Source: a virus. From it: a stretch of 31,152 nt of DNA. The stretch lies in UHGV virus genome UHGV-1981267; one strand, 5' to 3'. Position 1 is the stretch's first letter, and each line of letters starts with the position of its first letter. A program made the position numbers and the translations under genes. This document shows positions 1 through 31,152 of this stretch, piece after piece. Below the pieces are notes generated by a model. The model was not told the DNA's origin. It was given only the letters and a program-made list of their open reading frames with translations, and did no database searches.

Positions 1-3000
1 CAGTACGCCGGTGCTGGACAGTGAGGGGAATACCAACATCTCCGGCGTCACGGTGGTGTTCCGGGCCGGTGAGCAGGAGCAGTCACCGCCGGAGGGATTT
101 GAATCCTCCGGCTCCGAGACAGTGCTGGGTACGGAAGTGAAATATGACACGCCGATCACCCGGACCATCACGTCGGCAAACATCGACCGTCTGCGCTTTA
201 CCTTCGGTGTACAGGCACTGGTGGAAACCACCTCAAAGGGGGACCGGAATCCGTCGGAAGTCCGCCTGCTGGTTCAGATACAGCGTAATGGTGGCTGGGT
301 GACGGAAAAAGACATCACCATTAAGGGCAAAACCACCTCGCAGTATCTGGCCTCGGTGGTGGTGGATAACCTGCCGCCGCGCCCGTTCAATATACGGATG
401 CGCAGGATGACGCCGGACAGCACCACAGACCAGCTGCAGAACAAAACGCTCTGGTCGTCATACACCGAAATCATCGATGTGAAACAGTGCTACCCGAACA
501 CGGCACTGGTCGGCGTGCAGGTGGATTCGGAGCAGTTCGGCAGCCAGCAGGTGAGCCGTAATTATCATCTGCGCGGGCGCATTCTGCAGGTGCCGTCGAA
601 CTATAACCCGCAGACGCGACAATACAGCGGTATCTGGGACGGAACGTTTAAACCGGCATACAGCAACAACATAGTCTGGTGTCTGTGGGATATGCTGACC
701 CATCCGCGCTACGGCATGGGGAAACGTCTTGGTGCAGCGGATGTGGATAAATGGGCGCTGTATGTCATCGGCCAGAATTGCGACCAGTCAGTGCCGGATG
801 GCTTTGGCGGCACGGAGCCGCGCATTACCTGTAATGCGTACCTGACCACACAGCGCAAGGCGTGGGATGTGCTCAGTGATTTTTGCTCGGCGATGCGCTG
901 TATGCCGGTATGGAACGGGCAGACGCTGACGTTCGTGCAGGACCGACCATCAGATAAGGTGTGGACCTATAACCGCAGTAATGTGGTGATGCCGGATGAT
1001 GGCGCGCCGTTCCGCTACAGCTTCAGCGCCCTGAAGGACCGCCATAATGCCGTTGAGGTGAACTGGATTGACCCGGATAACGGCTGGGAGACGGCGACAG
1101 AGCTTGTGGAGGACACGCAGGCCATTGCCCGTTACGGTCGTAACGTCACGAAGATGGATGCCTTTGGCTGTACCAGTCGGGGGCAGGCACACCGCGCCGG
1201 GCTGTGGCTGATTAAAACAGAACTGCTGGAAACGCAGACCGTGGATTTCAGCGTCGGCGCAGAAGGGCTTCGCCATGTACCGGGCGATGTTATTGAAATC
1301 TGTGATGATGACTATGCCGGTATCAGCACCGGTGGTCGTGTGCTGGCGGTGAACAGCCAGACCCGGACGCTGACGCTCGACCGTGAAATCACGCTGCCAT
1401 CCTCCGGTACCACGCTGATAAGCCTGGTTGACGGAAGTGGCAATCCGGTCAGCGTGGAGGTTCAGTCCGTCACCGACGGCGTGAAGGTAAAAGTGAGCCG
1501 TGTTCCTGACGGTGTTGCTGAATACAGCGTATGGGGGCTGAAGCTGCCGACGCTGCGCCAGCGACTGTTCCGCTGCGTGAGTATCCGTGAGAACGATGAC
1601 GGCACGTATGCCATCACCGCCGTGCAGCATGTGCCGGAAAAAGAGGCCATCGTGGATAACGGGGCGCACTTTGACGGCGAACAGAGTGGCACGGTGAATG
1701 GTGTCACGCCGCCAGCGGTGCAGCACCTGACCGCAGAAGTCACTGCAGACAGCGGGGAATATCAGGTGCTGGCGCGATGGGACACACCGAAGGTGGTGAA
1801 GGGCGTGAGCTTTATGCTTCGCCTGACCGTGGCAGCGGATGACGGCAGTGAGCGGCTGGTCAGCACGGCCCGGACGACGGAAACCACATACCGCTTCAGG
1901 CAGCTGGCGCTGGGAAGCTACAGGCTGACAGTCCGGGCGGCAAATGCCTGGGGGCAGCAGGGCGATCCTGCATCGGTATCGTTCCGGATTGCCGCACCGG
2001 CAGCGCCGTCGCGGATTGAGCTGACGCCGGGCTATTTTCAGATAACCGCCACGCCCCATCTTGCCGTTTATGATCCGACGGTACAGTTTGAGTTCTGGTT
2101 CTCGGAAAAGCGGATTGCGGATATCAGGCTGGTTGAAACTACAGCCCGCTATCTTGGCACGGCGCTGTACTGGATAGCTGCCAGTATCAATATCAAACCG
2201 GGCCATGATTATTATTTTTACATCCGCAGTGTGAACACCGTTGGCAAATCGGCATTTGTGGAGGCTGTCGGTCGGGCGAGCGATGATGCCGAAGGTTACC
2301 TGGATTTTTTCAAAGGCCAGATAACCGAATCCCATCTCGGTAAAGAGCTGCTGGGAAAAGTCGAGTTGACGGAGGATAACGCCAGCAAACTGGAGGAGTT
2401 TTCGAAAGAGTGGAAAGATGCCAACGATAAATGGAATGCCATGTGGGGCGTCAAAATTGAGCAGACCAAAGACGGCAAACATTATGTCGCGGGTATTGGC
2501 CTCAGCATGGAGGACACGGAGGAAGGTAAACTGAGCCAGTTCCTGGTTGCCGCTAACCGTATCGCGTTTATTGACCCGGCAAACGGGAATGAAACGCCGA
2601 TGTTTGTGGCGCAGGGCAACCAGATATTCATGAACGACGTGTTCCTGAAGCGCCTGACGGCCCCCACCATTACCAGCGGCGGTAATCCTCCGGCATTTTC
2701 CCTGACACCGGACGGGCGGCTGACGGCGAAAAATGCCGATATCAGCGGTAACGTGAATGCGAACTCCGGGACGCTCAACAACGTCACGATTAACGAGAAC
2801 TGCCGGGTTCTGGGAAAACTGTCCGCGAACCAGATTGAAGGCGATCTCGTTAAAACAGTGGGCAAAGCTTTCCCCCGTGACTCCCGGGCACCGGAGCGGT
2901 GGCCATCAGGGACCATTACCGTCAGGGTTTATGACGATCAGCCGTTTGACCGGCAAATTGTTATTCCGGCTGTGGCATTCAGTGGCGCTAAGCATGAGAG

Positions 3001-3253
3001 AGAGCATACTGATATTTACTCCTCATGCCGTCTGATAGTGCGGAAAAACGGTGCTGAAATTTATAACCGTACCGCGCTGGATAATACGCTGATTTACAGT
3101 GGCGTTATTGATATGCCTGCCGGTCACGGTCACATGACACTGGAGTTTTCGGTGTCAGCATGGCTGGTAAATGGCTGGTATCCCACAGCAAGTATCAGCG
3201 ATTTGCTGGTTGTGGTGATGAAGAAAGCCACTGCAGGCATCACGATTAGCTGA
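1..3253 (+). CDS. J: Tail tip host-specificity protein (lambda J-like), 5' end cut by window edge
   Basis: Track ORF 11..3253 is open to the window edge. Sits directly upstream of lom and stf as in lambda. Size and context fit J. Confidence 0.85.
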
Positions 3254-3272
3254 ATTTTATAACCCAGATACG

Positions 3273-3297
3273 GGCACCAGAAATGGTGCCTTTTTTA
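3273..3297 (+). terminator. Intrinsic terminator after J
   Basis: Stem GGCACC / GGTGCC with loop AGAAAT, followed by a run of six T. Confidence 0.6.
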
Positions 3298-3320
3298 TTG
3301 CAGAAAAGCGAGAGGTAATT

Positions 3321-3920
3321 ATGCGTAAATTATGTGCTGTTATTCTGTCCGCAGTAGTCTGGCTGGTTGCCGCTGGTACGCCAGCGAACGCAGCAGAGCA
3401 TCAGTCCACACTAAGCGCCGGGTATCTTCAGACCCATACTGATATGCCAGGCAGTGATGACCTGAAGGGCATTAACGTGAAATACCGTTATGAATTTACG
3501 GACACGCTGGGGCTGGTGACGTCATTCAGTTATGCCAATGCCAAAGATGAGCAAAAAACGCATTACAGCGATACCCGCTGGCATGAAGATTCAGTGCGTA
3601 ACCGCTGGTTCAGCATGATGGCGGGGCCATCTGTACGCGTGAATGAATGGTTCAGTGCTTATGCGATGGCAGGTGTGGCTTACAGCCGTGTTTCGACGTT
3701 CTCCGGGGATTATCTCCGCGTAACTGACAACAAGGGGAAAACGCACGATGTGCTGACCGGAAGTGATGACGATCGCCACAGCAACACGTCTCTGGCGTGG
3801 GGAGCTGGCGTGCAGTTTAACCCGACCGAATCCGTGGCCATTGATATTGCTTATGAAGGCTCCGGCAGTGGCGACTGGCGCACTGACGGTTTCATCGTGG
3901 GTGTCGGTTATAAGTTCTGA
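3321..3920 (+). CDS. lom: Lom-like outer membrane protein (Ail/Lom family)
   Basis: 199 aa with signal peptide. Near-colinear with lambda Lom as I recall it (EHQSTLSAGYL..., C-terminal DGFIVGVGYKF). Same position as in lambda. Confidence 0.9.
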   Translation: MRKLCAVILSAVVWLVAAGTPANAAEHQSTLSAGYLQTHTDMPGSDDLKGINVKYRYEFTDTLGLVTSFSYANAKDEQKTHYSDTRWHEDSVRNRWFSMMAGPSVRVNEWFSAYAMAGVAYSRVSTFSGDYLRVTDNKGKTHDVLTGSDDDRHSNTSLAWGAGVQFNPTESVAIDIAYEGSGSGDWRTDGFIVGVGYKF

Positions 3921-7797: not shown

Positions 7798-7826
7798 TAT
7801 CCCCTGCGATGCAGGGGATATTTCTT
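7798..7826. terminator. Bidirectional hairpin between convergent genes
   Basis: Perfect 10-bp stem TATCCCCTGC / GCAGGGGATA with 3-nt loop. T-rich on plus side (TTTCTT). Sits between the plus-strand membrane-protein gene and the sopB 3' end. Confidence 0.5.
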
Positions 7827-8790
7827 AATTATCAGTAGATTGTTCCTCTAGTAACAACTCAATTCTGCTTAGTATTTCTTTAGATATTTTTCGGCTATCA
7901 ATTTTTATAGTTACAAAATTACCTTTATATCTAGCCGTGATCCCTTCCCCATATTTTTTCTCGTCTTTTGTTTTTTCCTCGTCGCCAACTAGAACAGAGT
8001 CAGATAATATTTGTATAATCCGTGAAGCTTCTAAATCCTCGCCGTTTTTTTTAATTGCCAGAAGATGATGAGCAGCATTGCTCATGGCAGTCATGTTTTT
8101 TTTGTAGACCTTAAACAAAGAATCTCCAGCACGAGCTGACAGTTCTCCTGGATGATTGAAGATAGCTAATATATCTTTTGGTAGACCAGCTGTATTAATA
8201 CAGCGAGTGATAATATTTCTGTCTATATTTTCAGCCTCGGCTAATGCTTTAACGTTACCATCAAAGTCATTTAGCTTGCGTAAGTATCTCTTTCCTCTTT
8301 CGTATGCACTAATAGGCCTATAATCGTTACCAATTTGGGATAACCAATGCATCTGTTCATCGTCGAGATCACCTATTAAGACGCGATAGTCACATCCTGT
8401 TAATATCGCTGCTTTTCTTCTACGTGAGCCGTCAGCGACTTCAACGACTCCAGACACTTTTCTGGCGAAAGCTGGATTTTGTTGTCCAGACGTTAGAAAA
8501 GATGGGATTAAATCGGCTAGAGAGGATTCATTTAATAAATCTTGATCGCGTTCATTACCTAGCCATACCATTGTTGCCATTTCAACTTTATCTGCGGGAA
8601 TTGTCTCTAACTTAAAGTTAACATTACGTCCGCATACTGGCAAAGTTATGCTGTTACCGGTTAATGAACTCAGTTGACGTTTTAAATCACCAACCATAGG
8701 TGATACGGGCTGATGTTCAGGGGCATGATGATTATTACTCATAATGCGATTAATATCTGGAGCATTTTTTAGAAGAGAGCGCTGTTTCAT
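7825..8790 (-). CDS. sopB: Partition protein SopB (ParB family)
   Basis: 321 aa. Blocks match recalled F SopB (ITLPVCGR, GNERDQ, IPSFL-GQQ-PAF, ADGSRRRKAA, GNDYRP-SAYERG). Start overlaps sopA stop. Confidence 0.9.
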   Translation of the reverse strand: MKQRSLLKNAPDINRIMSNNHHAPEHQPVSPMVGDLKRQLSSLTGNSITLPVCGRNVNFKLETIPADKVEMATMVWLGNERDQDLLNESSLADLIPSFLTSGQQNPAFARKVSGVVEVADGSRRRKAAILTGCDYRVLIGDLDDEQMHWLSQIGNDYRPISAYERGKRYLRKLNDFDGNVKALAEAENIDRNIITRCINTAGLPKDILAIFNHPGELSARAGDSLFKVYKKNMTAMSNAAHHLLAIKKNGEDLEASRIIQILSDSVLVGDEEKTKDEKKYGEGITARYKGNFVTIKIDSRKISKEILSRIELLLEEQSTDN

Positions 8791-9956
8791 TATTCGTTCT
8801 CCCAGCGAGGTTTTATTAGATCATCAAAAATTTCTCGGCAAACAGGGTCCCATATAGAAACAGCATTTCTCCATGCATTCAATGTTGAACGTTGGTTTGC
8901 TGCTTGTTCAAATACTGTTCTCATTTTTATCTGGCCTTTACCTACTTCATCGGTAACGCGTACAACCTGACGTAATACCATTGATCCCCATGTATTTCTT
9001 ATTTGTTCTTCCATCCATCGTGATTGATTCCCTGTAGTGAGACTATATTTAGTCAGAAGTAAGCGAACGGTTGGCTCAAATCCACCTAGGTCAACGCTTT
9101 CCAATAGATCGAGAAGCATTGTGAAAAACTGTAGAACAGAAGCGTAATCAAATAATTCTGCAGGTGTAGCAACAACAATAACGTCAGCGGCACAAACAAC
9201 GTTAATGGTTCCTGTACCGAGGTTCGGAGCACTATCTATAACGATAACATCGTAGTTATCCCAAACTGATTCAATAGCTGCGCGCAGCATAAGGTGTGGA
9301 GGATGAGGCAATTTACCCTGAGCATGATATTGCATGAGATCTGTTTCTATACGATGTAAAGCTAGGCAGCTAGGGATAATGTCTAGCCCAGGCCAACATG
9401 TTGGCTTTATAGCATATTCAGCGTTATCGCGTTCTCCTAAGTAAAATGGCAGTAAAGTATCCTCGGCATGGATATGTAAATCAGGAACATAACCGTGATA
9501 CATAGAGGCCGTGCCTTGAGGATCGTTACCTTCAACCAAAAGAACACGATGACCTTGTAATGCTAACCATTGAGCTTGATGTACCGCAGACGATGTTTTA
9601 TAAACGCCGCCTTTGTGTGACATAACGGCAAGCACAACAGGGTTTTTATCTTGTGGTCGTTGGTTTGGGTTGCCAAAAACTGCTCGCATACTGTTGATTT
9701 GATCTATGGTATAACCAGCACGACGTTCAATTCTTCCTCTCATTTCAAAGTCAGGTGCAGGTAAACGCCCGCTCTTCTCAGCATCTCTAATTGCTTGAGG
9801 AGTTACACCAATTAAATCTGCTACTTCAGTTATACCCCATCGGCGGGTGATACGCCGAGCTTCAGGACTATCATCACCGAATTGAGCGATAGCAATTGCT
9901 TGGGTCATTTCTTGACCTCTCGTAACACAATCTTGCAATAACTTTTTCAAAGACAT
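8790..9956 (-). CDS. sopA: Partition ATPase SopA (ParA family)
   Basis: 388 aa with deviant Walker A (KGGVYKTS). N-terminal HTH region. Same length as F SopA. Confidence 0.92.
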   Translation of the reverse strand: MSLKKLLQDCVTRGQEMTQAIAIAQFGDDSPEARRITRRWGITEVADLIGVTPQAIRDAEKSGRLPAPDFEMRGRIERRAGYTIDQINSMRAVFGNPNQRPQDKNPVVLAVMSHKGGVYKTSSAVHQAQWLALQGHRVLLVEGNDPQGTASMYHGYVPDLHIHAEDTLLPFYLGERDNAEYAIKPTCWPGLDIIPSCLALHRIETDLMQYHAQGKLPHPPHLMLRAAIESVWDNYDVIVIDSAPNLGTGTINVVCAADVIVVATPAELFDYASVLQFFTMLLDLLESVDLGGFEPTVRLLLTKYSLTTGNQSRWMEEQIRNTWGSMVLRQVVRVTDEVGKGQIKMRTVFEQAANQRSTLNAWRNAVSIWDPVCREIFDDLIKPRWENE

Positions 9957-18400: not shown

Positions 18401-19450
18401 GATTTCATAGCCAGTCCGCAGGCCGGTATTCCCTTTTCCTTCTGTAGCTGATTTCCGGTCATTATCCAGTGCGCAGGTGATTTTTGCCGCCGGGTACATG
18501 TTTACCAGTTGTTCCACAACATGAACCATGTTGTTAGCGGATACAGCGACAACCACAGCGTCAAAGCGTTTATCTTTTTTCGTGGCAAGCCAGATGGATG
18601 CACCAGTAGCAAAACCTTCTGTAACAGCGATGTTTTGCGCCCCTTTCAGCTCACCGATAACAAAGCAGGCACCGACGAAATCGCCGCTGGTTACGGCGCT
18701 GGTCTGGTATTTTCCACCTTGTTTGTCGATTCGCTGCCAACCAACAATACGACCATCGTAACGACCGTCCAGGTGAGCCAGAGGGATAGACATATACGTG
18801 GTTGGCCCCCTGCTCCATTTTGCGCTGTCGTGACTGGTCACGCGACGCACATCACACGAATTAAAAACGTCACGAATACCTTTTTTAATCGCATATGGCC
18901 ATGAGCCGTCTTCTGCAGGAGCATGTTCCCAAGCACTGTGGAATGCCAGCCATCCCAGCAAACGTTCATGGTCCATTTGGTTGTTTTTCAGGTCATTAAT
19001 TCGTTTTTGTTCTTCACGGCGACGACGTGCTTCGGCCTGACGTTCTATTCTTGCCCGTTCTTCTTCCGGTTGTGCGACCACGGTCGCATTATTCCGTTGT
19101 TGCTCACGGCGATATTCAGAAAACAGGAAGGAGAAACCGCTCCATGAGCCAGCATCGCTGCCTTTATGGACGAAGTTAATGAACGGGTAATCAATCCCTT
19201 TGCTGTGTTCCAGCCGGGAGTAAATTTCTACGCGTCCTTTGAGGCTCTTCTCGAGAGCTTCTGGAGATGTTTTATTGTATGAAGAGTAACGCTCAACACC
19301 CCCGCGAGGGTTGAGTTGGATGTTGTCGGAACAGGCAGACCAGTTGATACCAGCCATCTGTGCCAGCTCGGTTAGTTCATCCCGTGCTGCTTCAATTAGC
19401 GAGAACGGATCGCTGCCAAAGCGATCCGCATAGAAATCGTTTAATGTCAT
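15455..19450 (-). CDS. repA: Replication protein RepA (primase plus helicase, N15 RepA-like)
   Basis: 1331-aa ORF. Walker A GMGSGKS in the central helicase region. Size and position next to cB as in N15. Confidence 0.9.
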   Translation of the reverse strand: MTLNDFYADRFGSDPFSLIEAARDELTELAQMAGINWSACSDNIQLNPRGGVERYSSYNKTSPEALEKSLKGRVEIYSRLEHSKGIDYPFINFVHKGSDAGSWSGFSFLFSEYRREQQRNNATVVAQPEEERARIERQAEARRRREEQKRINDLKNNQMDHERLLGWLAFHSAWEHAPAEDGSWPYAIKKGIRDVFNSCDVRRVTSHDSAKWSRGPTTYMSIPLAHLDGRYDGRIVGWQRIDKQGGKYQTSAVTSGDFVGACFVIGELKGAQNIAVTEGFATGASIWLATKKDKRFDAVVVAVSANNMVHVVEQLVNMYPAAKITCALDNDRKSATEGKGNTGLRTGYEILSKFNDVRCVYPTFEDDPQMECSDFNDLHKLRGLRETARQLFATANRLKTGTDLLSLTLNRLKTIKRDNRRTFAKELLRAVDIGMLTCPVPNSPSDLFNMFCIVLREIGLENIYRATVKDHIARRLNKKCRIAQAPRSFSERITDPNKRPQHITYKRFETSVMTDDVLKYVQSLQGIVIVRAGMGSGKSTGLLRPLMHSSERGISVAHRVSLIGGLWEMMTEGKGVKADILHYQDPGYQEMAPYASKLTICINSIVKNCWQPLMRQHDYFGFDEATQGLRAVLSGRAMENPVAVFNTLIDALARTEQHPIMVDADANDLLVDLAELAMKRREELGLPAWLQIHVIELPVDLRNRETGEPIRVFYTEKDRIMTEVVKAVSNGEKIMLATDSSTFAEDVTATLRMHFPGKKFLCVNQKNKPEPEVEAFTNQPKKMVKKYDGLIYSPSISSGVSIEQKHFDRHFGMFCGEVVPSDAVQMLRRDRTAKEFIIGFDKARAKRETDPQKIERAFAQALLATAGMNGELTDVVFDGDRISMGVANTDFTRMKIKAAAIEASARNDYASNMICIMHSDGYKVSPLATDYAANDIGKDLRKEARDIVWEQTLDLHLNTETPQESEREELLKKRALTLEEQAKLVRWDIENELKLPVEEGTLKFYFDGARDKIRRYETMLLDEVTARRYDREEAAINFTYAYRQAGQWQYFVVTAMTREQADDVFKTKFLGIIDYKVKATPTVEVGARGFYALKSATLRQYFIDCGINPETMTGEATQERLKFARDNLMTAERRDLLNNVLHIGGFMTPKGKPKVPEALFKNICDSLGLKTGKRRGRDGDKRPTLRFVEPESAAFMLDILAQRQKDGLTLKTRKAEKTAIEMDRDLDLNIYMDDKTRSTNEQVQNAPHSVISEALAVLPVVVPESWAMSALSGEELATMSSWSSASIAMTFASLYLTEFMDHLSSNELRRLREYITGNSPCSYEEQGAFYG
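15736..15786. other. Candidate replication origin element inside the repA 3' region
   Basis: Inverted repeat TGGATCGCG ... CGCGATCCA flanking the AT tract CATATATATATT. Three GATC sites within about 50 bp. Confidence 0.35.
19073..19088. other. sopC-like centromere palindrome (inside repA coding sequence)
   Basis: TGCGACCACGGTCGCA: 7-bp inverted arms with 2-bp spacer. One base per arm different from the F sopC core TGGGACC-AC-GGTCCCA as recalled. Confidence 0.7.
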
Positions 19451-21312: not shown

Positions 21313-21558
21313 ATGTTCAGGAAACCGTCGAAGCCAGAATTAAGGTATTCGGGGGTAAGAAATGAATATGTTATCTGGTGTCCAACTTGTGGTTACAGGA
21401 CACGACCAGATAGTAATAAGCAGTCTGTAATTGCCGATTGGTATTTATCAAATCAGCCAGGTAATAAGCATATAGAAAATCTTTGGATTAAGCGTTACTT
21501 GGAAATCAGAGAGGGTGCGACCGTGGTCGCACAAGAAAATGAAAATAACGCCATTTAA
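21313..21558 (+). CDS. Small zinc-ribbon protein
   Basis: Internal ATG of track ORF 21238..21558. CPTCGY motif. Contains a sopC-like site at its 3' end. Confidence 0.4.
   Translation: MFRKPSKPELRYSGVRNEYVIWCPTCGYRTRPDSNKQSVIADWYLSNQPGNKHIENLWIKRYLEIREGATVVAQENENNAI
21516..21531. other. sopC-like centromere palindrome
   Basis: TGCGACCGTGGTCGCA. Confidence 0.7.
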
Positions 21559-25888: not shown

Positions 25889-25894
25889 AAACTG

Positions 25895-25910
25895 TGCGAC
25901 CACGGTCGCA
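25895..25910. other. sopC-like centromere palindrome
   Basis: TGCGACCACGGTCGCA, within the longer palindrome CTGTGCGACCACGGTCGCACAG. Confidence 0.7.
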
Positions 25911-25930
25911 CAGCACAAAAACGAAAAAGC

Positions 25931-25960
25931 TTGGCAAAATTACGGTTTTTAGTTATTGTT
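25931..25960 (+). promoter_or_regulatory. Candidate sigma70 promoter (possible late promoter)
   Basis: TTGGCA (25931..25936), 18-bp spacer, TATTGT (25955..25960). Followed closely by hairpins and a terminator. Confidence 0.35.
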
Positions 25961-25997
25961 TTGTTAAGTTGGGTTTTTTGTACCCAACAGCCAACAA

Positions 25998-26022
25998 GCC
26001 GCCTTTATGGCGGTTTTTTTGT
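25998..26022 (+). terminator. Intrinsic terminator downstream of the candidate promoter (tR'-like)
   Basis: Stem GCCGCC / GGCGGT, loop TTTAT, then a 7-T run. A second hairpin GTTGGG...CCCAAC lies at 25968..25988. Confidence 0.6.
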
Positions 26023-27600: not shown

Positions 27601-28097
27601 TGCAGTCATCATTACGCAAAGCTGTCGCAACAGCTATTGGTGGCGGGGCTATTGCCATAGCATCTGTGCTCATCTCTGGTCCGAGCGGCAACGATGGTCT
27701 GGAAGGTGTGAGACATAACCCCTACAAAGACATCGTTGGTGTATGGACTGTATGTTACGGGCATACAGGAAAAGACATTATGCTCGGTAAAACGTATACC
27801 GAAGCAGAATGCAAAGCTCTCCTGAATAAAGACCTTGCTACTGTCGCCAGACAAATTAACCCGTACATCAAAGTCGATATACCGGAAACAACGCGTGGTG
27901 CTCTTTACTCGTTCGTTTACAACGTGGGTGCAGGCAATTTCAGAACATCGACACTTCTTCGCAAAATCAACCAGGGCGATATCAAAGGTGCATGTGATCA
28001 ACTACGTCGCTGGACATATGCTGGCGGTAAGCAATGGAAAGGGCTGATGACTCGCCGTGAGATTGAGCGTGAAGTCTGTTTGTGGGGGCAGCAATGA
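27597..28097 (+). CDS. SAR endolysin (lysozyme, phage 21 R-like)
   Basis: N-terminal signal-anchor-release segment [33 protein letters not shown] and lysozyme core. ATG overlaps the holin stop. Confidence 0.9.
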
Positions 28098-28561
28098 GCA
28101 GAGTAACCGCAATTATCTCCGCACTGGTTATCTGCATCATCGTCTGCCTGTCGTGGGCTGTTAATCATTACCGTGATAACGCCATCGCCTACAAAGAACA
28201 GCGTGATAAAAAAGTCAGTGAGCTGAAGCAGGCGACCGCCACCATCGCTGACATGCAGCAGCGTCAGCGTGATGTTGCTGCGCTCGATGCAAAATACACG
28301 AAGGAGTTGGCTGATGCGAAAGCTGAAAATGATGCTCTTCGGCGCAAGCTTGATAATGGTGGTCGGGTGCTCGTCAAAGGAAAATGCTCTGTGCCATCCT
28401 CAGCCGAAACCTCCAGCGCCTCCGGCATGGGCAATGATGCCACCGTCGAACTCTCTCCAGTTGCTGGACGAAACGTTCTCGGTATCCGGGACGGAATCAT
28501 CAGAGACCAGACAGCACTGAGAACGCTTCAGGAATACATCAAGACGCAATGCCCGAATTAA
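28094..28561 (+). CDS. Rz: Spanin inner-membrane subunit Rz
   Basis: [30 protein letters not shown]... closely matches recalled lambda Rz. ATG overlaps the endolysin stop. Confidence 0.88.
28314..28520 (+). CDS. Rz1: Spanin outer-membrane lipoprotein subunit Rz1, embedded in the +1 frame of Rz
   Basis: SD AAGGAG 7 nt upstream of ATG 28314. Lipobox VVGC. Proline-rich mature part [11 protein letters not shown]. Confidence 0.8.
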
Positions 28562-28602
28562 TCCCTCTGTATCAAAAACGAACTCAATTTGTTGGATAGT
28601 GA

Positions 28603-28914
28603 ATGAAAATTTATATTGCCGGGCCAATGACTGGATATGAGAACTTTAATCGTGACGCCTTTAATAAAGAGGCAGATCGTTTGTCACGACATGGTCACTC
28701 TGTCTTGAATCCAGCCACTTTGCCTAATGGTCTGACACAACGTGAATACATGGATATTTGCTTTGCAATGCTTCGTTGTGCTGATGCTATTTTGATGCTT
28801 CCTGGCTGGAAAGCGTCTGCTGGAGCAACTGCTGAGTATCATTACGCATACAAGATGGAGATGCCGGTATTCACTACGCTGAATTACCCGCCAGCTTGTT
28901 CCTCTGTAGCATAA
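28603..28914 (+). CDS. DUF4406-like small protein (nucleoside 2-deoxyribosyltransferase-like fold family)
   Basis: N-terminal MKIYIAGPMTG motif, which I recall as typical of this prophage protein family. Confidence 0.5.
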   Translation: MKIYIAGPMTGYENFNRDAFNKEADRLSRHGHSVLNPATLPNGLTQREYMDICFAMLRCADAILMLPGWKASAGATAEYHYAYKMEMPVFTTLNYPPACSSVA

Positions 28915-28934
28915 AAATCTCTTTGTTTCTCGTG

Positions 28935-28950
28935 TGCGACCGTGGTCGCA
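28935..28950. other. sopC-like centromere palindrome
   Basis: TGCGACCGTGGTCGCA. Confidence 0.7.
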
Positions 28951-28961
28951 CATTAAATACC

Positions 28962-29138
28962 GCGCTGCATCGTCGCCGTATTTCCGCATTAACCATGACC
29001 GTAGCCCGACGGGGAACTCCTCTGCGCGAGTGTGCGGAAATAATCAAAAACGATGCACACCGGGTTTTTACCGCGCTAATGATTCGCGGGTTTGTCCCTC
29101 ATGCTCGCCAGTCCTGTGCGAGGGTGGAAGAAACAGGG
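28962..29138 (+). repeat. Direct repeat copy 1 (duplicate of the cos-proximal sequence at 30744..30921)
   Basis: About 178 bp, roughly 85-90% identical by eye to copy 2, with one 1-bp indel. Flanked on both sides by sopC-like palindromes. Confidence 0.8.
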
Positions 29139-29154
29139 CATGTATTCAGGAGCG

Positions 29155-29170
29155 TGCGACCGTGGTCGCA
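29155..29170. other. sopC-like centromere palindrome
   Basis: TGCGACCGTGGTCGCA. Confidence 0.7.
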
Positions 29171-29194
29171 CGGTATCTTTGTCAGGAGGTTTTG

Positions 29195-30055
29195 ATGAAA
29201 GAGTTGCAAAAAATTAATTCAATAATGGAAAGATTAAGTGCTCTTGAGCGTAAGCTGGACGATTGTGGAAAGCTGTGTGTTGAAAAGCAAAATGAGCTTT
29301 ACCGGGAATTTTTTACAATCGTAAGTGAGCTGATGCCAATTGTTAATAACTGCCTGATGACATCCAGATTTTTTAATGTCGATGCTACTACATCCAGAAA
29401 ATTTTCTGTGAAAATTCAAGAAAGAGTTTCTGGTAGTGTGACAAGAGAGATGGCTGAACAGTTGGTGGCAATGAGCAATAAAACAAAAAGAAAAAAGGCA
29501 TTGCTTGTAACAGCAAATCAGCTTTCAGGGCGCGTTGACTTTCAGGTCAGACAGGGTGGGCGTGTACTGGTAAATGATGCGTTCGTTGGACGTAGCTTTA
29601 GTCCTTACTCGATAAAATATGATGTTGATGCAGATGATCAGGATATCAGCATTTCCTGGAAATCTGAGACAGCAGGGATTGTATTAACAGCAGAGTTGTT
29701 GAGTGATGATAAAAATGATGTCCAGCATCATTTGGACGAAAAGAATCATATTTCTGAAATTTGTATGAAGCCACGCAGCGGAATGACTTTATTGTCACGC
29801 ACTCTTGCTGCTGGCTTTTCTGCACCGGAAAAACGTGTGCTTCTGGTAGTGCCTGAAGATGCAGATATTCGACCACTGAATGGCTGTGATGTTATTAGTG
29901 CAAAAACATTGCATACCCGCGTCATTCCTGTACCGGATGTGGTCATTATTGATGATGTTGAGAAATGCAAGTCTGTTTCCTCAACTGCCACAATCAAGCG
30001 AATTTTACGTTGTAGCACGTCGGCTGTTGTATTCCGGAAGCAGTTACATAACTAA
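29195..30055 (+). CDS. Hypothetical protein (287 aa), no recognisable motif; first gene of the repeat-bracketed cargo
   Basis: Strong SD AGGAGG 5 nt before ATG 29195. Visibly AT-rich. Track ORF 28934..30055 extends upstream through the repeat, and I treat that extension as non-coding. Confidence 0.6.
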   Translation: MKELQKINSIMERLSALERKLDDCGKLCVEKQNELYREFFTIVSELMPIVNNCLMTSRFFNVDATTSRKFSVKIQERVSGSVTREMAEQLVAMSNKTKRKKALLVTANQLSGRVDFQVRQGGRVLVNDAFVGRSFSPYSIKYDVDADDQDISISWKSETAGIVLTAELLSDDKNDVQHHLDEKNHISEICMKPRSGMTLLSRTLAAGFSAPEKRVLLVVPEDADIRPLNGCDVISAKTLHTRVIPVPDVVIIDDVEKCKSVSSTATIKRILRCSTSAVVFRKQLHN

Positions 30056-30178
30056 CCAGTTTTGTTTTGCAGAACATCCTCAACTAAAAGCTTATAGAAA
30101 GAGAGCCTGAGATATTTTTTCTGTCTCTCGTAGTTGTTTATTTTTCTCGAACAGGCTTACAACTTACAGGATATAAAC

Positions 30179-30628
30179 ATGCAAGAAGAAGCAAATAAAA
30201 TTCTTGTTGATTTATTGAAGAAGGCCAGCGATGGAATTGATTCCGCCATTGCATTCAGTCAGGCTCAGATTCCGGATGTTGTTCATCAGTTGCTGGTATG
30301 GAATATGGTTGATAGCCTGATTAAAACATTAATAGCCATTTCAACAATCCCGCTGGTTTTCTGGTTTATGAAAAAACAGTACCAAAAAGTTGAAATTGGT
30401 ATATTCGATAATGAAGGATGGTCATGGGAGAAGGGAAAGCCTAAATACAAACCGACTATGATTTGGGAAAGTAACGGTGAGATTAGTTTTCTTATCTTAC
30501 CATTAGCAGCAGTTTTTGTTCTGTGGGTAAGTTTTATTATTGCTGTAGTAACCAATATGACATGGTTAAAAATCTGGTTGGCACCTAAGTTATATCTAAT
30601 CGAATACGCAGCATCACTAATTAAATAG
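30179..30628 (+). CDS. Small membrane protein (two predicted TM helices); second gene of the cargo
   Basis: ATG 30179 within track ORF 30134..30628. Hydrophobic segments LIKTLIAISTIPLVFWF and ISFLILPLAAVFVLWVSFIIAVV. Confidence 0.5.
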   Translation: MQEEANKILVDLLKKASDGIDSAIAFSQAQIPDVVHQLLVWNMVDSLIKTLIAISTIPLVFWFMKKQYQKVEIGIFDNEGWSWEKGKPKYKPTMIWESNGEISFLILPLAAVFVLWVSFIIAVVTNMTWLKIWLAPKLYLIEYAASLIK

Positions 30629-30743
30629 TCCATTACAAAAGCCATTCGCTACTGAGTGGCTTTGATAATGGCTTATACCCTGCACGGGATAACTTAACTG
30701 ATATCCCTTTTAACGGATAAAGGTATTCAAGCCTGACACATCA

Positions 30744-30921
30744 TGCGCTGCATCGTCGCCGTATTTCCGCATTAACCATGACCGTAGCCCGACGGGGAAT
30801 TCCTTCTGCGCGAGTGTGCGTAAATAATCAAAAACGATGCACACCGGGTTTTTACCGCGTTTATGGTGCGCGGTTTTGTCCCTCATAGTCGCCCGTCCGG
30901 TGCGATGGTGGAAGAAGCTGG
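30744..30921 (+). repeat. Direct repeat copy 2, contiguous with cos
   Basis: Matches copy 1 at 28962..29138 and runs into the lambda-like cosQ/cosN region. Confidence 0.8.
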
Positions 30922-30924
30922 ATA

Positions 30925-31152
30925 TTAATGCAAGTGATAATTATTCTCACCTTTGCGGGTCCTTTCCGGCGATCCGGCAGGCTACGGGGCGGAAGGCGCG
31001 CGGGTTTTCGCTATTTATGAAAATTTTCCGGTTTAAGGCGTTTCCGTTCTTCTTCGCCGTAACTTAATGTTTTTATTTAAAACACCCCCTGAAAAGAAAG
31101 GAAACGACAGATGCTGAAAACGGGCTTTTTGTCCTATGTCGTTTCCTTTCTC
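30925..31152 (+). other. cos: Lambda-like cos region (cosQ, cosN, start of cosB)
   Basis: Near-colinear with recalled lambda termini (...GGGTCCTTTCCGGCGATCC...TTACG | GGGCGG...CGCGGGTTTTCGCTATTTATGAAAATTTTCCGGTTTAAGGCG...). The presumptive 12-nt cosN at 30987..30998 reads GGGCGGAAGGCG. Confidence 0.8.

What the first reader, a model, noticed from the sequence alone, without database searches (positions are those of the whole stretch)
28935..30925. AT-rich two-gene cargo bracketed by a ~180-bp direct repeat between the lysis cassette and cos
A ~178-bp sequence occurs twice in direct orientation (28962..29138 and 30744..30921). Copy 2 is the normal cos-proximal sequence; copy 1 sits right after the lysis/DUF4406 genes. 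Between them lie two visibly AT-rich genes: a 287-aa soluble protein (29195..30055, strong SD) and a 150-aa two-TM membrane protein (30179..30628). I recognise no motif in either. A duplicated flank plus a composition shift suggests a moron acquired by recombination at the repeat. The soluble-plus-membrane pairing resembles two-component exclusion or abortive-infection modules such as lambda RexA/RexB, but I see no sequence similarity to Rex. This is the best candidate for an undescribed system, and its function is unknown.
Basis: partly seen in the sequence, partly recalled or inferred. Interest (0 to 1): 0.75.

Follow-up and report, generated by a model that had tools for sequence, protein, structure and literature searches.

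The report
Accessory-gene slot with doubled plasmid centromere site

Summary
A ~187-nt direct repeat (28962-29148 / 30745-30932, ~92% identical) flanks two AT-rich genes: A (29195-30055, 286 aa) and B (30179-30628, 149 aa, two TM segments). The window is an N15-type phage-plasmid (TelN, SopA, SopB).

It is the published N15 SopB centromere box. The window has five copies; N15 has four.

The repeat is the ordinary lambdoid pre-cos block. It is a recombination scar and not the way the cargo was acquired. Related prophages carry A-B with one IR and no upstream repeat, or carry repeat-IR-A-cos without B. The only invariant left neighbour of A is the IR.

A and B are separable. B belongs to a large phage family (PHROG 3054, including Sf6 gene 34 and lytic Vibrio and phi92-like phages) and usually stands alone, often after N beside sieB. 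A is nearly an orphan with a helical hairpin, a beta domain and a P-loop-like domain lacking the Walker A lysine. A natural deletion removing the 3' third of A and most of B recurs. Pfam, NCBIfam, Rfam and PDB sequence searches found nothing for either protein; PADLOC gave one weak, non-significant match for B. Function is unknown. My best guess is late-expressed accessory genes, with B possibly a membrane exclusion factor.

The parts
28603..28914 (+). DUF4406 gene (homologue of N15 gene 57); left boundary of the variable slot
   Evidence: Pfam DUF4406 E = 3.7e-34. N15 gene 57 is annotated DUF4406 at the same position.
28934..28951 (+). IR4a: N15-type SopB-binding centromere box GTGCGACCGTGGTCGCAC
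   Evidence: Exact match. The motif equals N15 IR1-IR4, GTGCGACC-NN-GGTCGCAC (PMC7205306 Table 4). This copy carries two arm mutations in the integrated prophage L031.
28962..29148 (+). Repeat copy 1: an extra copy of the lambdoid pre-cos block, without its 115-nt leader
   Evidence: It is absent in L037-L039, where IR4a's left flank joins IR4b's right flank.
29154..29171 (+). IR4b: second SopB box, 23 nt upstream of gene A's start codon; also a terminator-like hairpin
   Evidence: It is 18/18 conserved upstream of A in every lineage examined, even where the flanks diverge.
29195..30055 (+). Gene A, 286 aa, cytoplasmic, near-orphan: helical hairpin (2-56), beta domain (85-191), P-loop-like alpha/beta domain (197-282) with KPRSGMT in place of Walker A and VVIIDD as Walker B
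30056..30178 (+). A-B intergenic region, GC 0.35, no convincing promoter or structure
   Evidence: Fold z-score -0.37. Conserved with the cassette.
30179..30628 (+). Gene B, 149 aa, two-TM membrane protein of the widespread phage family PHROG 3054
   Evidence: dN/dS 0.10-0.18 in deeper comparisons; loop and TM2 are variable and recombining.
30630..30744 (+). Leader of the conserved lambdoid pre-cos block; begins with a very stable hairpin (30625-30676) that probably ends the cargo transcript
   Evidence: Conserved in about 2500 E. coli genomes. Contiguous with the repeat in mEp460, PhiR47_1 and PhiR70_1. Hairpin -22.4 kcal/mol, z = -6.0.
30745..30932 (+). Repeat copy 2: the native pre-cos block
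   Evidence: In L021/L024 it is cut to about 70 nt and followed by a third IR.
30933..31152 (+). cos region (lambda-like)
   Evidence: 87-99% identical to the cos regions of lambda and lambdoid prophages. In PhiR46_1 Nu1 follows.
19072..19089 (-). SopB box equivalent to N15 IR1 (one mismatch), inside the repA ORF
   Evidence: its flanks match the N15 IR1 oligonucleotide.
21515..21532 (+). SopB box equivalent to N15 IR2
   Evidence: its flanks match N15 IR2.
25894..25911 (-). SopB box at the N15 IR3 position, just upstream of the late promoter-like site (25931-25959) and terminator (25996-26016)
   Evidence: N15 annotation shows the same order: IR3, -35/-10, terminator.

Best explanation
This is the variable accessory-gene slot at the right end of an N15-type linear phage-plasmid, between Rz/DUF4406 and cos. 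It holds two independently mobile accessory genes stacked by modular recombination.

Gene A always travels with an N15-type SopB centromere box immediately upstream. Gene B is a single-gene membrane-protein module that recurs across many phages. The ~187-nt direct repeat is a second copy of the ordinary lambdoid pre-cos boundary block, left behind when modules with different junctions recombined. With it came a second centromere box, so the right-end partition site (IR4 of N15) is doubled.

Shown:
- the elements and their identities;
- the separability of A and B;
- the dispensability of the cargo;
- purifying selection on both genes.

Inferred:
- Both genes are transcribed as distal members of the Q-antiterminated late operon. 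IR4b is a weak terminator in front of them and the pre-block hairpin is the terminator behind them.
- In the plasmid state SopB occupies IR4a and IR4b. That adds partition-complex sites and may dampen read-through into A-B.
- B acts in the inner membrane during lytic growth. The most likely role (about 30%) is superinfection exclusion or injection blocking, with specificity set by its exchangeable TM1-loop-TM2 segment.
- A is a cytoplasmic oligomeric protein with a catalytically dead P-loop-like domain. It probably acts by binding, not by catalysis.
For: N15-type element: TelN, SopA and SopB are in the window, the gene order is as in N15, and YDC107_1 is classified as Ravinvirus.

Centromere boxes: there are five matches against 0.02 expected. 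The motif is identical to the published N15 IR1-4, and the IR1 and IR2 flanks are conserved.

Slot variability.

Architecture series. L037 is the window minus one 220-bp [repeat + IR] unit.

Separability.

Deletion allele: it fuses A nt 585 to B nt 428 over 7 shared nt and is seen in four fetched contigs (L002, L020, L025, L026) and in four complete-genome records that carry the same A 1-585 allele.

Real genes: dN/dS is 0.10-0.18 for B and 0.27 for A.

Late-operon placement: a promoter-like site and terminator follow IR3, as in N15. All genes are on the same strand, and the only terminator-like site before A is IR4b.

B features: termini and loop motifs are conserved while the TM segments vary. 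B is an intragenic mosaic, and dN >= dS in the loop and TM2 among close alleles. It sits beside sieB in P22-like prophages. It is present in lytic phages.
Against: There is no functional evidence for either protein. No promoter or transcript data exist, so prophage-state expression is not excluded.

A plus B may still be functionally linked:
- In complete E. coli genomes, 28 genomes carry full-length A and 28 genomes carry at least 80% of the A-B interval. These are most likely the same genomes, though the two lists were not matched accession by accession.
- A-B adjacency persists in a lineage only 75-83% identical at the nucleotide level (L009).
- Whether the L007 prophage carries B elsewhere could not be checked.

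The exclusion role for B is a guess. It rests on protein class, neighbourhood and the allele-swapping pattern, and the dN/dS counts are small. SopB binding to IR4a and IR4b is inferred from sequence identity only. The AF2 models are of moderate confidence (pLDDT 63.5 and 69.7).
Confidence: 0.6

Rival explanations
1. A and B form a two-component abortive-infection or exclusion system. A would be a cytoplasmic sensor and B a membrane effector, protecting lysogens from other phages.
For: The cargo is AT-rich and sits in a hotspot next to cos. It pairs a soluble with a membrane protein. 28 complete E. coli genomes carry full-length A and 28 carry the whole A-B interval, most likely the same genomes. 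The pair is kept in the divergent L009. A has a coiled-coil plus a P-loop-like domain, which could suit a sensor.
Against: B is a stand-alone gene in most contexts, including alleles 90% identical to this one and strictly lytic phages. A occurs without an adjacent B. The B allele is replaced next to an unchanged A. PADLOC gives no significant hit (only E 0.049 for B) and Pfam and NCBIfam give none. The Walker A lysine is absent. The location is in the late operon with no promoter-like site upstream. The A'-B deletion recurs in nature.
Confidence: 0.12
2. A and/or B are lysis-accessory proteins, for example an antiholin-like or lysis-timing membrane factor, that belong functionally to the adjacent lysis cassette.
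For: They lie directly downstream of holin, lysozyme and Rz in the same operon. B is a small two-TM protein, as class II holins are. In a Klebsiella prophage B also lies between the lysis genes and terminase. A's only remote relative, P0145, is encoded just upstream of a lysis cassette and shares its tail with YdfR-family lysis-cassette proteins.
Against: In most prophages B lies in the early-left operon next to N and sieB, or inside tail modules on the opposite strand, far from lysis genes. It matches no holin family. The cargo is absent from most relatives with the same lysis genes. A does not match DUF1327 or the YdfR tail module.
Confidence: 0.12
3. The IR-A unit is part of plasmid-state biology. 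Gene A would be a SopB-controlled gene whose product contributes to maintenance or partition of the linear plasmid prophage, and the doubled IR would be selected to strengthen partition.
For: A perfectly conserved SopB box precedes A in every lineage, even where the flanks have diverged. A is found mostly on 46-47 kb replicons of N15 size. Right-end IR number varies from 1 to 3 among relatives. A has a coiled-coil plus a degenerate NTPase-like fold.
Against: N15 and other relatives are maintained without A. 21 of the 35 E. coli genomes with A carry it on the chromosome; the two chromosomal loci examined are integrated lambdoid prophages with no sop or telN genes annotated in the stretch read. 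The truncated A allele persists on plasmid-sized replicons. The IR could be conserved simply as a terminator hairpin.
Confidence: 0.08

Closest known systems
N15 centromere sites IR1-IR4 (SopB boxes; Ravin & Lane 1999, sequences in PMC7205306 Table 4)
   Same: The 18-nt sequence GTGCGACC-NN-GGTCGCAC is identical. The sites are dispersed over the genome. Cognate sopAB genes are in cis. Sites at the IR1, IR2 and IR3 positions and at the right end correspond to those of N15.
   Different: There are five sites instead of four. The right-end site is doubled around an inserted copy of the lambdoid pre-cos block, and relatives have one or three. The boxes are also carried as passengers into integrated lambdoid prophages in which no sopAB was seen.
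Lambdoid morons in the Rz-cos interval (e.g. lambda bor; N15 genes 58-59)
   Same: The genomic slot is the same. Content varies between otherwise similar phages. Base composition deviates. The cargo is flanked by conserved boundary sequence: lambda keeps 107 nt of the same block right after bor.
   Different: The genes are on the late-operon strand with no recognisable promoter of their own. Classical morons such as bor are independently transcribed. The proteins are unrelated to Bor, Dcm or gp59.
P22 SieA / HK97 gp15-type inner-membrane superinfection-exclusion proteins
   Same: B is a small phage-encoded inner-membrane protein of about 150 aa. It moves as a single gene, sits beside sieB in P22-like prophages, and has a swap-prone central segment.
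   Different: There is no sequence similarity. SieA has three TM segments and the motif FxRYPxEAxxFNK (PMC10883804); B has two TM segments and lacks the motif. B is also found in strictly lytic phages. No exclusion phenotype has been tested.
Lambda RexA/RexB
   Same: A soluble and a membrane protein are encoded side by side in a temperate phage.
   Different: There is no homology. B has 2 predicted TM helices (from memory, RexB has more). The genes are separable. They lie in the late operon, not the immunity operon.
YdfR / DUF1327 late-region proteins of lambdoid prophages
   Same: A's only remote relatives, P0145 and P0144, share its ~60-aa beta domain (E about 1e-4 against 1.84 billion proteins). 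P0145 is a mosaic with the C-terminal tail of long YdfR proteins and is encoded between Q and the lysis genes.
   Different: A has neither DUF1327 nor the YdfR tail module. The function of YdfR proteins is itself unknown.

Membership tests
N15-type SopB centromere site | 18-nt inverted repeat GTGCGACC-NN-GGTCGCAC | tested here: met
   Exact at 21515, 25894, 28934 and 29154, with one mismatch at 19072. 0.02 matches are expected by chance. Matches PMC7205306 Table 4.
N15-type SopB centromere site | Cognate SopA/SopB partition genes on the same replicon | tested here: met
   Window 7825-8790 (-) matches SoPB_HTH at 7e-25. Window 8790-9956 (-) is a ParA-type ATPase at 1.4e-25.
N15-type SopB centromere site | Positional correspondence with the N15 sites | tested here: met
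   The flanks of the 19072 and 21515 sites match N15 IR1 and IR2. The 25894 site sits after the gp51 homologue, like IR3. The right-end sites sit like IR4.
N15-type SopB centromere site | SopB binding and a contribution to plasmid stability | not testable with these tools
   Needs EMSA or ChIP and stability assays.
Moron (independently acquired accessory gene) | Present or absent between otherwise closely related genomes | tested here: met
   Cargo is absent in mEp460 and PhiR47_1 and replaced in N15, lambda and PhiR70_1. A is in 35 of 5426 E. coli genomes.
Moron (independently acquired accessory gene) | Deviant base composition | tested here: met
   GC is 0.405 (A) and 0.362 (B), against 0.461 for the window and 0.494 for the lysis genes.
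Moron (independently acquired accessory gene) | Own promoter and terminator; expression from the prophage | tested here: inconclusive
   No sigma-70-like site lies upstream of A. A strong hairpin follows B. Expression state was not testable.
RexAB-like two-component abortive infection | Homology to RexA/RexB or to any catalogued defence protein | tested here: not met
   Pfam and NCBIfam gave no hits. PADLOC gave none for A and only a weak, non-significant match for B (E 0.049, 10.6 bits). PHROGs gave only unknown-function families.
RexAB-like two-component abortive infection | Obligate co-occurrence of the two genes | tested here: not met
   B occurs without A in L003, L010-L018, L029, L030 and L034-L036. 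A occurs without B in L007, L008 and L040. About 151 E. coli genomes carry B against 28 with A+B.
RexAB-like two-component abortive infection | Expression in the lysogen from the immunity region | tested here: not met
   By position, the genes are at the distal end of the late operon. Actual transcription was not measured.
P-loop NTPase (C-terminal domain of A) | RecA-like/P-loop alpha-beta fold | tested here: met
P-loop NTPase (C-terminal domain of A) | Walker A GxxxxGK[ST] | tested here: not met
   The strand-loop-helix position reads KPRSGMT, with Met in place of the catalytic Lys. It is the same in the five full-length homologues aligned.
P-loop NTPase (C-terminal domain of A) | Walker B hhhhD[DE] | tested here: met
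   VVIIDD at residues 249-254, at the end of a predicted strand. It is conserved apart from an I-to-V change in P0009.
P22 SieA family (for B) | Three TM segments and the motif FxRYPxEAxxFNK | tested here: not met
   B has two predicted TM helices and no such motif. SieA features are from PMC10883804.
Holin families (for B) | Match to a holin profile | tested here: not met
   No Pfam or PHROG holin match at E <= 1.
YdfR / DUF1327 (for A) | DUF1327 domain or the YdfR C-terminal helical module | tested here: not met
   No Pfam hit. An HMM of the module does not score A above 2000 shuffled controls.

The most novel reading that the evidence does not exclude
Gene B would represent a large, uncharacterised family of phage inner-membrane exclusion or immunity proteins. 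The family is PHROG 3054 and includes Sf6 gene 34 and homologues in P22-like, lambdoid, Vibrio, Pseudomonas and phi92-like phages. Its conserved termini would carry out a common membrane function, and its recombining TM1-loop-TM2 segment would set target specificity. In this lineage the near-orphan pseudo-NTPase A, delivered with a SopB box that ties its expression to the plasmid state, would modulate or extend that activity. Together they would form an undescribed phage-plasmid-borne exclusion module.
Probability: 0.18. Interest if true: 0.6.

Novelty: new member of a known kind. Interest (0 to 1): 0.35.

Why it matters
The locus shows how the right end of N15-type phage-plasmids evolves. Accessory genes, boundary sequences and even partition sites are shuffled with ordinary integrative lambdoid prophages. 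SopB boxes serve as sequence markers that are best explained by transfer from phage-plasmids into integrative prophages. A doubled or tripled centromere site next to cos may affect partition strength, incompatibility or silencing of late genes, and this is easy to test.

Gene B marks a widespread phage membrane-protein family with no assigned function. It occurs in model phages (Sf6, CUS-3, HK639), so a single phenotype would annotate hundreds of genes. As it stands, there is no evidence for a new defence system.

Tried and rejected
- **Rfam** (E <= 1) on 28000-31152: no match.
- **Profile libraries for A and B:** Pfam and NCBIfam gave nothing. PADLOC gave nothing for A and one weak, non-significant match for B (E 0.049). 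PHROGs gave only unknown-function families.
- **PDB sequence search with the A profile:** nothing below E = 0.1.
- **Foldseek against BFVD:** for A, TM <= 0.27, so no global match. For B, only its own family.
- **AFDB50:** not available.
- **My visual impression that A's N-terminal hairpin is a diverged copy of the YdfR-tail helical module:** rejected. The module HMM does not score A above shuffled controls.
- **A versus N15 gp59,** the gene that follows IR4 in N15: no similarity.
- **Structured-RNA reading of the repeat block:** 3 of 49 pairs compensatory, covariation term -1.05, inconclusive.
- **Own promoter for A or B:** none found by the consensus scan.
- **Literature:** nothing on the proteins' accessions, the PHROG ids or Sf6 gene 34. 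Ravin & Lane 1999 (PMC94163) is not held. PMC9130767 was irrelevant.
- **B elsewhere in the L007 prophage:** the fetchable flank did not reach the early-left region.
Full report
**1. Observation**

The direct repeat is real. The repeat finder reports 28962-29021 / 30745-30804 (98%) and 29021-29148 / 30805-30932 (86%), shifted by one indel (alignment). BLAST gives 92.4% over 172 nt, E = 2e-68.

Both ORFs exist. Gene A is 29195-30055, 286 aa, with AGGAGG 5 nt upstream. Gene B is 30179-30628, 149 aa. GC is 0.405 for A and 0.362 for B, against 0.461 for the whole window and 0.53-0.55 for the repeat copies.

The same arrangement occurs in independent records, so it is not an assembly artefact:
- phage PhiR46_1, 99.7% identical;
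- YDC107_1;
- seven IMG/VR contigs;
- 28 complete E. coli genomes.

**2. Context**

The window is an N15-type linear phage-plasmid.
- It encodes a protelomerase (four TelK domains), a ParA-type SopA and a SopB with the SoPB_HTH domain.
- The gene order is that of N15.
- YDC107_1 is classified as Ravinvirus.
- Upstream of the finding lie an adenine methylase, holin, lysozyme, Rz and a DUF4406 gene.

As in N15, a centromere site is followed by a promoter-like site (25931-25959), a strong terminator (25996-26016) and then the methylase. That is the layout of a Q-antiterminated late operon. A and B lie on the same strand at its distal end. The only terminator-like site before them is at 29153-29172.

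**3.

The palindrome GTGCGACCGTGGTCGCAC occurs at 28934 and at 29154, on both sides of repeat copy 1. Three further copies lie at 19072, 21515 and 25894. That is five sites, with 0.02 expected by chance.

This is the SopB-binding centromere box of N15. The published oligonucleotides for N15 IR1-IR4 all read GTGCGACC-NN-GGTCGCAC (PMC7205306 Table 4). I found IR3 and IR4 at the expected places in the N15 record, where IR4 is annotated only as a putative terminator.

The flanks of the window's 19072 and 21515 sites match N15 IR1 and IR2. The 25894 site sits at the IR3 position. So N15 has four sites and this element has five, because the right-end site is doubled. The two right-end copies share only the 18-nt core and not their flanks.

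**4. What the repeat is**

In ordinary lambdoid phages (mEp460, PhiR47_1, PhiR70_1), a 115-nt leader and the ~187-nt block form one continuous conserved segment just upstream of cos. The leader alone is found in about 2500 of 5426 complete E. coli genomes. Lambda keeps the first 107 nt of the block right after the bor moron. N15 itself lacks it.

In the window this native segment begins at 30630, one base after B's stop codon. It opens with a very stable hairpin (-22.4 kcal/mol, z = -6.0), which is a plausible terminator for whatever occupies the slot. Copy 1 is the block without its leader. RNAalifold on nine copies gives only weak covariation, 3 of 49 pairs. I make no claim of a structured RNA.

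**5. How the locus is built**

Comparison of loci gives a series of architectures.

| Type | Loci | Order of elements |
|---|---|---|
| T1 | window, PhiR46_1, L022, L032 | DUF4406 - IR - repeat - IR - A - B - leader - repeat - cos |
| T2 | L037-L039 | DUF4406 - 19 nt - IR - A - B - leader - repeat - cos |
| T3 | L007, L008 (A 80% identical) | Rz - partial leader - repeat - IR - A - cos |
| T1' | L021, L024 | as T1, but the 3' two-thirds of repeat 2 replaced by a third IR |

- **T2.** The junction is exactly the left flank of IR4a joined to the right flank of IR4b. T1 and T2 therefore differ by one 220-bp [repeat + IR] unit.
- **T3.** There is no B and no DUF4406.
- **T1'.** The right flank of the third IR resembles that of N15 IR4.
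- **L031** is an integrated prophage in which the upstream IR has two arm mutations and an IS5 follows B.

Two conclusions follow. The cargo does not depend on the direct repeat: T2 has the cargo without the upstream copy, and T3 has A downstream of a single copy. The one invariant left neighbour of A is the IR, which is 18/18 identical even where its flanks have diverged.

The whole cassette, both IRs included, is 100% identical in an integrated lambdoid prophage next to zur/dinF, and no telN or sop genes are annotated in the 40.9 kb examined there. The cassette therefore moves between phage-plasmids and integrative prophages. The SopB boxes point to a phage-plasmid origin.

**6. Are A and B a pair?**

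Mostly not.
- **B alone.** B belongs to a large family (PHROG 3054): 488 clusters and 178 phage records, including Sf6 gene 34, CUS-3, HK639, HK633, Vibrio, Pseudomonas and phi92-like lytic phages.
- **B's usual positions.** In P22-like and lambdoid prophages of Salmonella, E. coli and E. albertii, alleles 74-90% identical sit alone in the early-left operon. They lie right after N, and in the four Salmonella loci sampled, beside sieB. In a Klebsiella prophage B follows a KilA-N gene. In Vibrio phage K367 it is a lone opposite-strand gene inside the tail module.
- **A alone.** A occurs without B within 10 kb in L007, L008 and L040.
- **Independent alleles.** In T2, A is 99% identical to the window's but B only 92%, with conserved flanks.
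- **Deletion allele.** A deletion fusing A nt 585 to B nt 428 over 7 shared nt is found in YDC107_1 and three IMG/VR contigs. Four complete-genome records carry the same A 1-585 allele.

Against this, 28 complete E. coli genomes carry full-length A and 28 carry at least 80% of the A-B interval. These are most likely the same genomes. A-B adjacency also persists in the divergent, frameshift-laden L009. These cases may reflect shared ancestry, so a functional link is not excluded.

**7. The proteins**

*Protein A* is close to an orphan.
- It has 15 clusters among 5.8 billion proteins, all at least 71% identical and all from Escherichia or Shigella.
- It has 12 hits among 1.84 billion representatives.
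- The only remote relatives, P0144 and P0145, share a ~60-aa beta domain. P0145 is a mosaic with the tail of long YdfR/DUF1327 proteins and lies between Q and a lysis cassette.
- A itself does not match DUF1327 or that tail module.

*Protein B.* The model (pLDDT 69.7) has a long N-terminal helix running into TM1, an aromatic-rich loop, TM2 and a C-terminal amphipathic helix. The termini and loop motifs are strongly conserved while the TM segments vary.

- In deeper comparisons dN/dS is 0.10-0.18.
- Among close cassette alleles, the loop and TM2 show dN >= dS.
- Against the E. albertii allele, the central codons 41-127 are nearly identical (dS 0.06-0.15), while the termini are saturated (dS > 1.5). 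The gene is therefore an intragenic mosaic. The counts are small.

Neither protein has a significant match in PADLOC (B only E 0.049), and neither matches Pfam, NCBIfam or PDB sequences. I found no literature on them.

**8. Interpretation**

Best-supported reading: two independently mobile accessory genes are stacked in the variable right-end slot of an N15-type phage-plasmid. The direct repeat and the doubled centromere box are scars or by-products of module exchange with lambdoid phages.

By inference:
- A and B are transcribed with the late operon.
- SopB occupies IR4a and IR4b in the plasmid state.
- B acts in the inner membrane during lytic growth.

I put about 30% on a superinfection-exclusion or injection-blocking role for B. 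That rests on its protein class, its position next to sieB, its presence in lytic phages and its swap-prone central segment. P22 SieA is an analogue only, because its defining three TM segments and motif are absent from B.

**9. Verdict**

The 'undescribed two-gene system' reading is not supported by the comparative evidence. The known biology of N15 centromere sites and lambdoid moron slots explains the architecture. What remains unknown is the function of a near-orphan protein and of a widespread phage membrane-protein family.

Noticed in passing
window 19072-19089, 21515-21532, 25894-25911, 28934-28951, 29154-29171: There are five N15-type SopB centromere boxes where N15 has four. The right-end one is doubled. 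In relatives the number of right-end boxes ranges from one (N15, L037) to three (L021, L024).
   Followed up: yes
L032 19740-21958; L031 5720-8650: The whole DUF4406-IR-repeat-IR-A-B cassette is 100% identical in an integrated lambdoid prophage at zur/dinF, where no sopAB or telN is annotated in the 40.9 kb read. In another integrated copy the upstream IR has two arm mutations and an IS5 sits after B. The SopB boxes look like passengers tracing gene flow from phage-plasmids to integrative prophages.
   Followed up: partly
L002 4696-5298; L020, L025, L026; E. coli hits H131-H134: A recurrent natural deletion joins gene A nt 585 to gene B nt 428 across 7 shared nt, removing the 3' third of A and most of B. 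It is seen in four fetched contigs, and four complete-genome records carry the same A 1-585 allele, so the cargo is dispensable.
   Followed up: yes
window 30625-30676: A very stable hairpin (-22.4 kcal/mol, z = -6.0) sits at the start of the conserved pre-cos leader, directly after B's stop codon. The leader is conserved in about 2500 E. coli genomes. It is probably a terminator closing the slot.
   Followed up: partly
window 28962-29148 and 30745-30932; alignment A6: The conserved ~187-nt pre-cos block folds into a plausible structure, including a CCGCG/CGCGG hairpin that changes to CTGTG/CGCAG in PhiR70_1 and L037. Overall covariation is weak (3 of 49 pairs) and there is no Rfam match.
   Followed up: partly
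window 30179-30628 vs L034 4001-4450 and L037 4001-4450: Gene B is an intragenic mosaic. Codons 41-127 are nearly identical to an E. albertii early-left allele, while both termini are saturated at synonymous sites. Among close cassette alleles the loop and TM2 show dN >= dS.
   Followed up: partly
proteins P0146-P0214: A ~55-aa helical module (…LENEIAELNKKLSVL.PSEDEKKRRDEQFAAFYDYCIEV…) lies at the C-terminus of long YdfR/DUF1327 proteins and at the N-terminus of several late-region proteins with unrelated C-terminal domains. This is a modular family of unknown function. Protein A does not match it.
   Followed up: partly
window 25894-26016: The order centromere box, promoter-like site and strong terminator just before the methylase gene reproduces the annotated N15 late promoter/terminator layout. 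A SopB site therefore lies about 20 nt upstream of the presumed late promoter.
   Followed up: partly
window 30710-30886 (- strand): A 58-aa ORF spans the leader/repeat junction and is annotated as a hypothetical protein in several phage records. It cannot be intact in copy 1, which lacks the leader. Whether it is a real gene was not examined.
   Followed up: no
window 1-3408 vs L032 37454-40861: The tail-fibre (J-like) region of the window is 95% identical to that of the integrated lambdoid prophage that shares the cassette. This is another sign of mosaic exchange between the two kinds of prophage.
   Followed up: no
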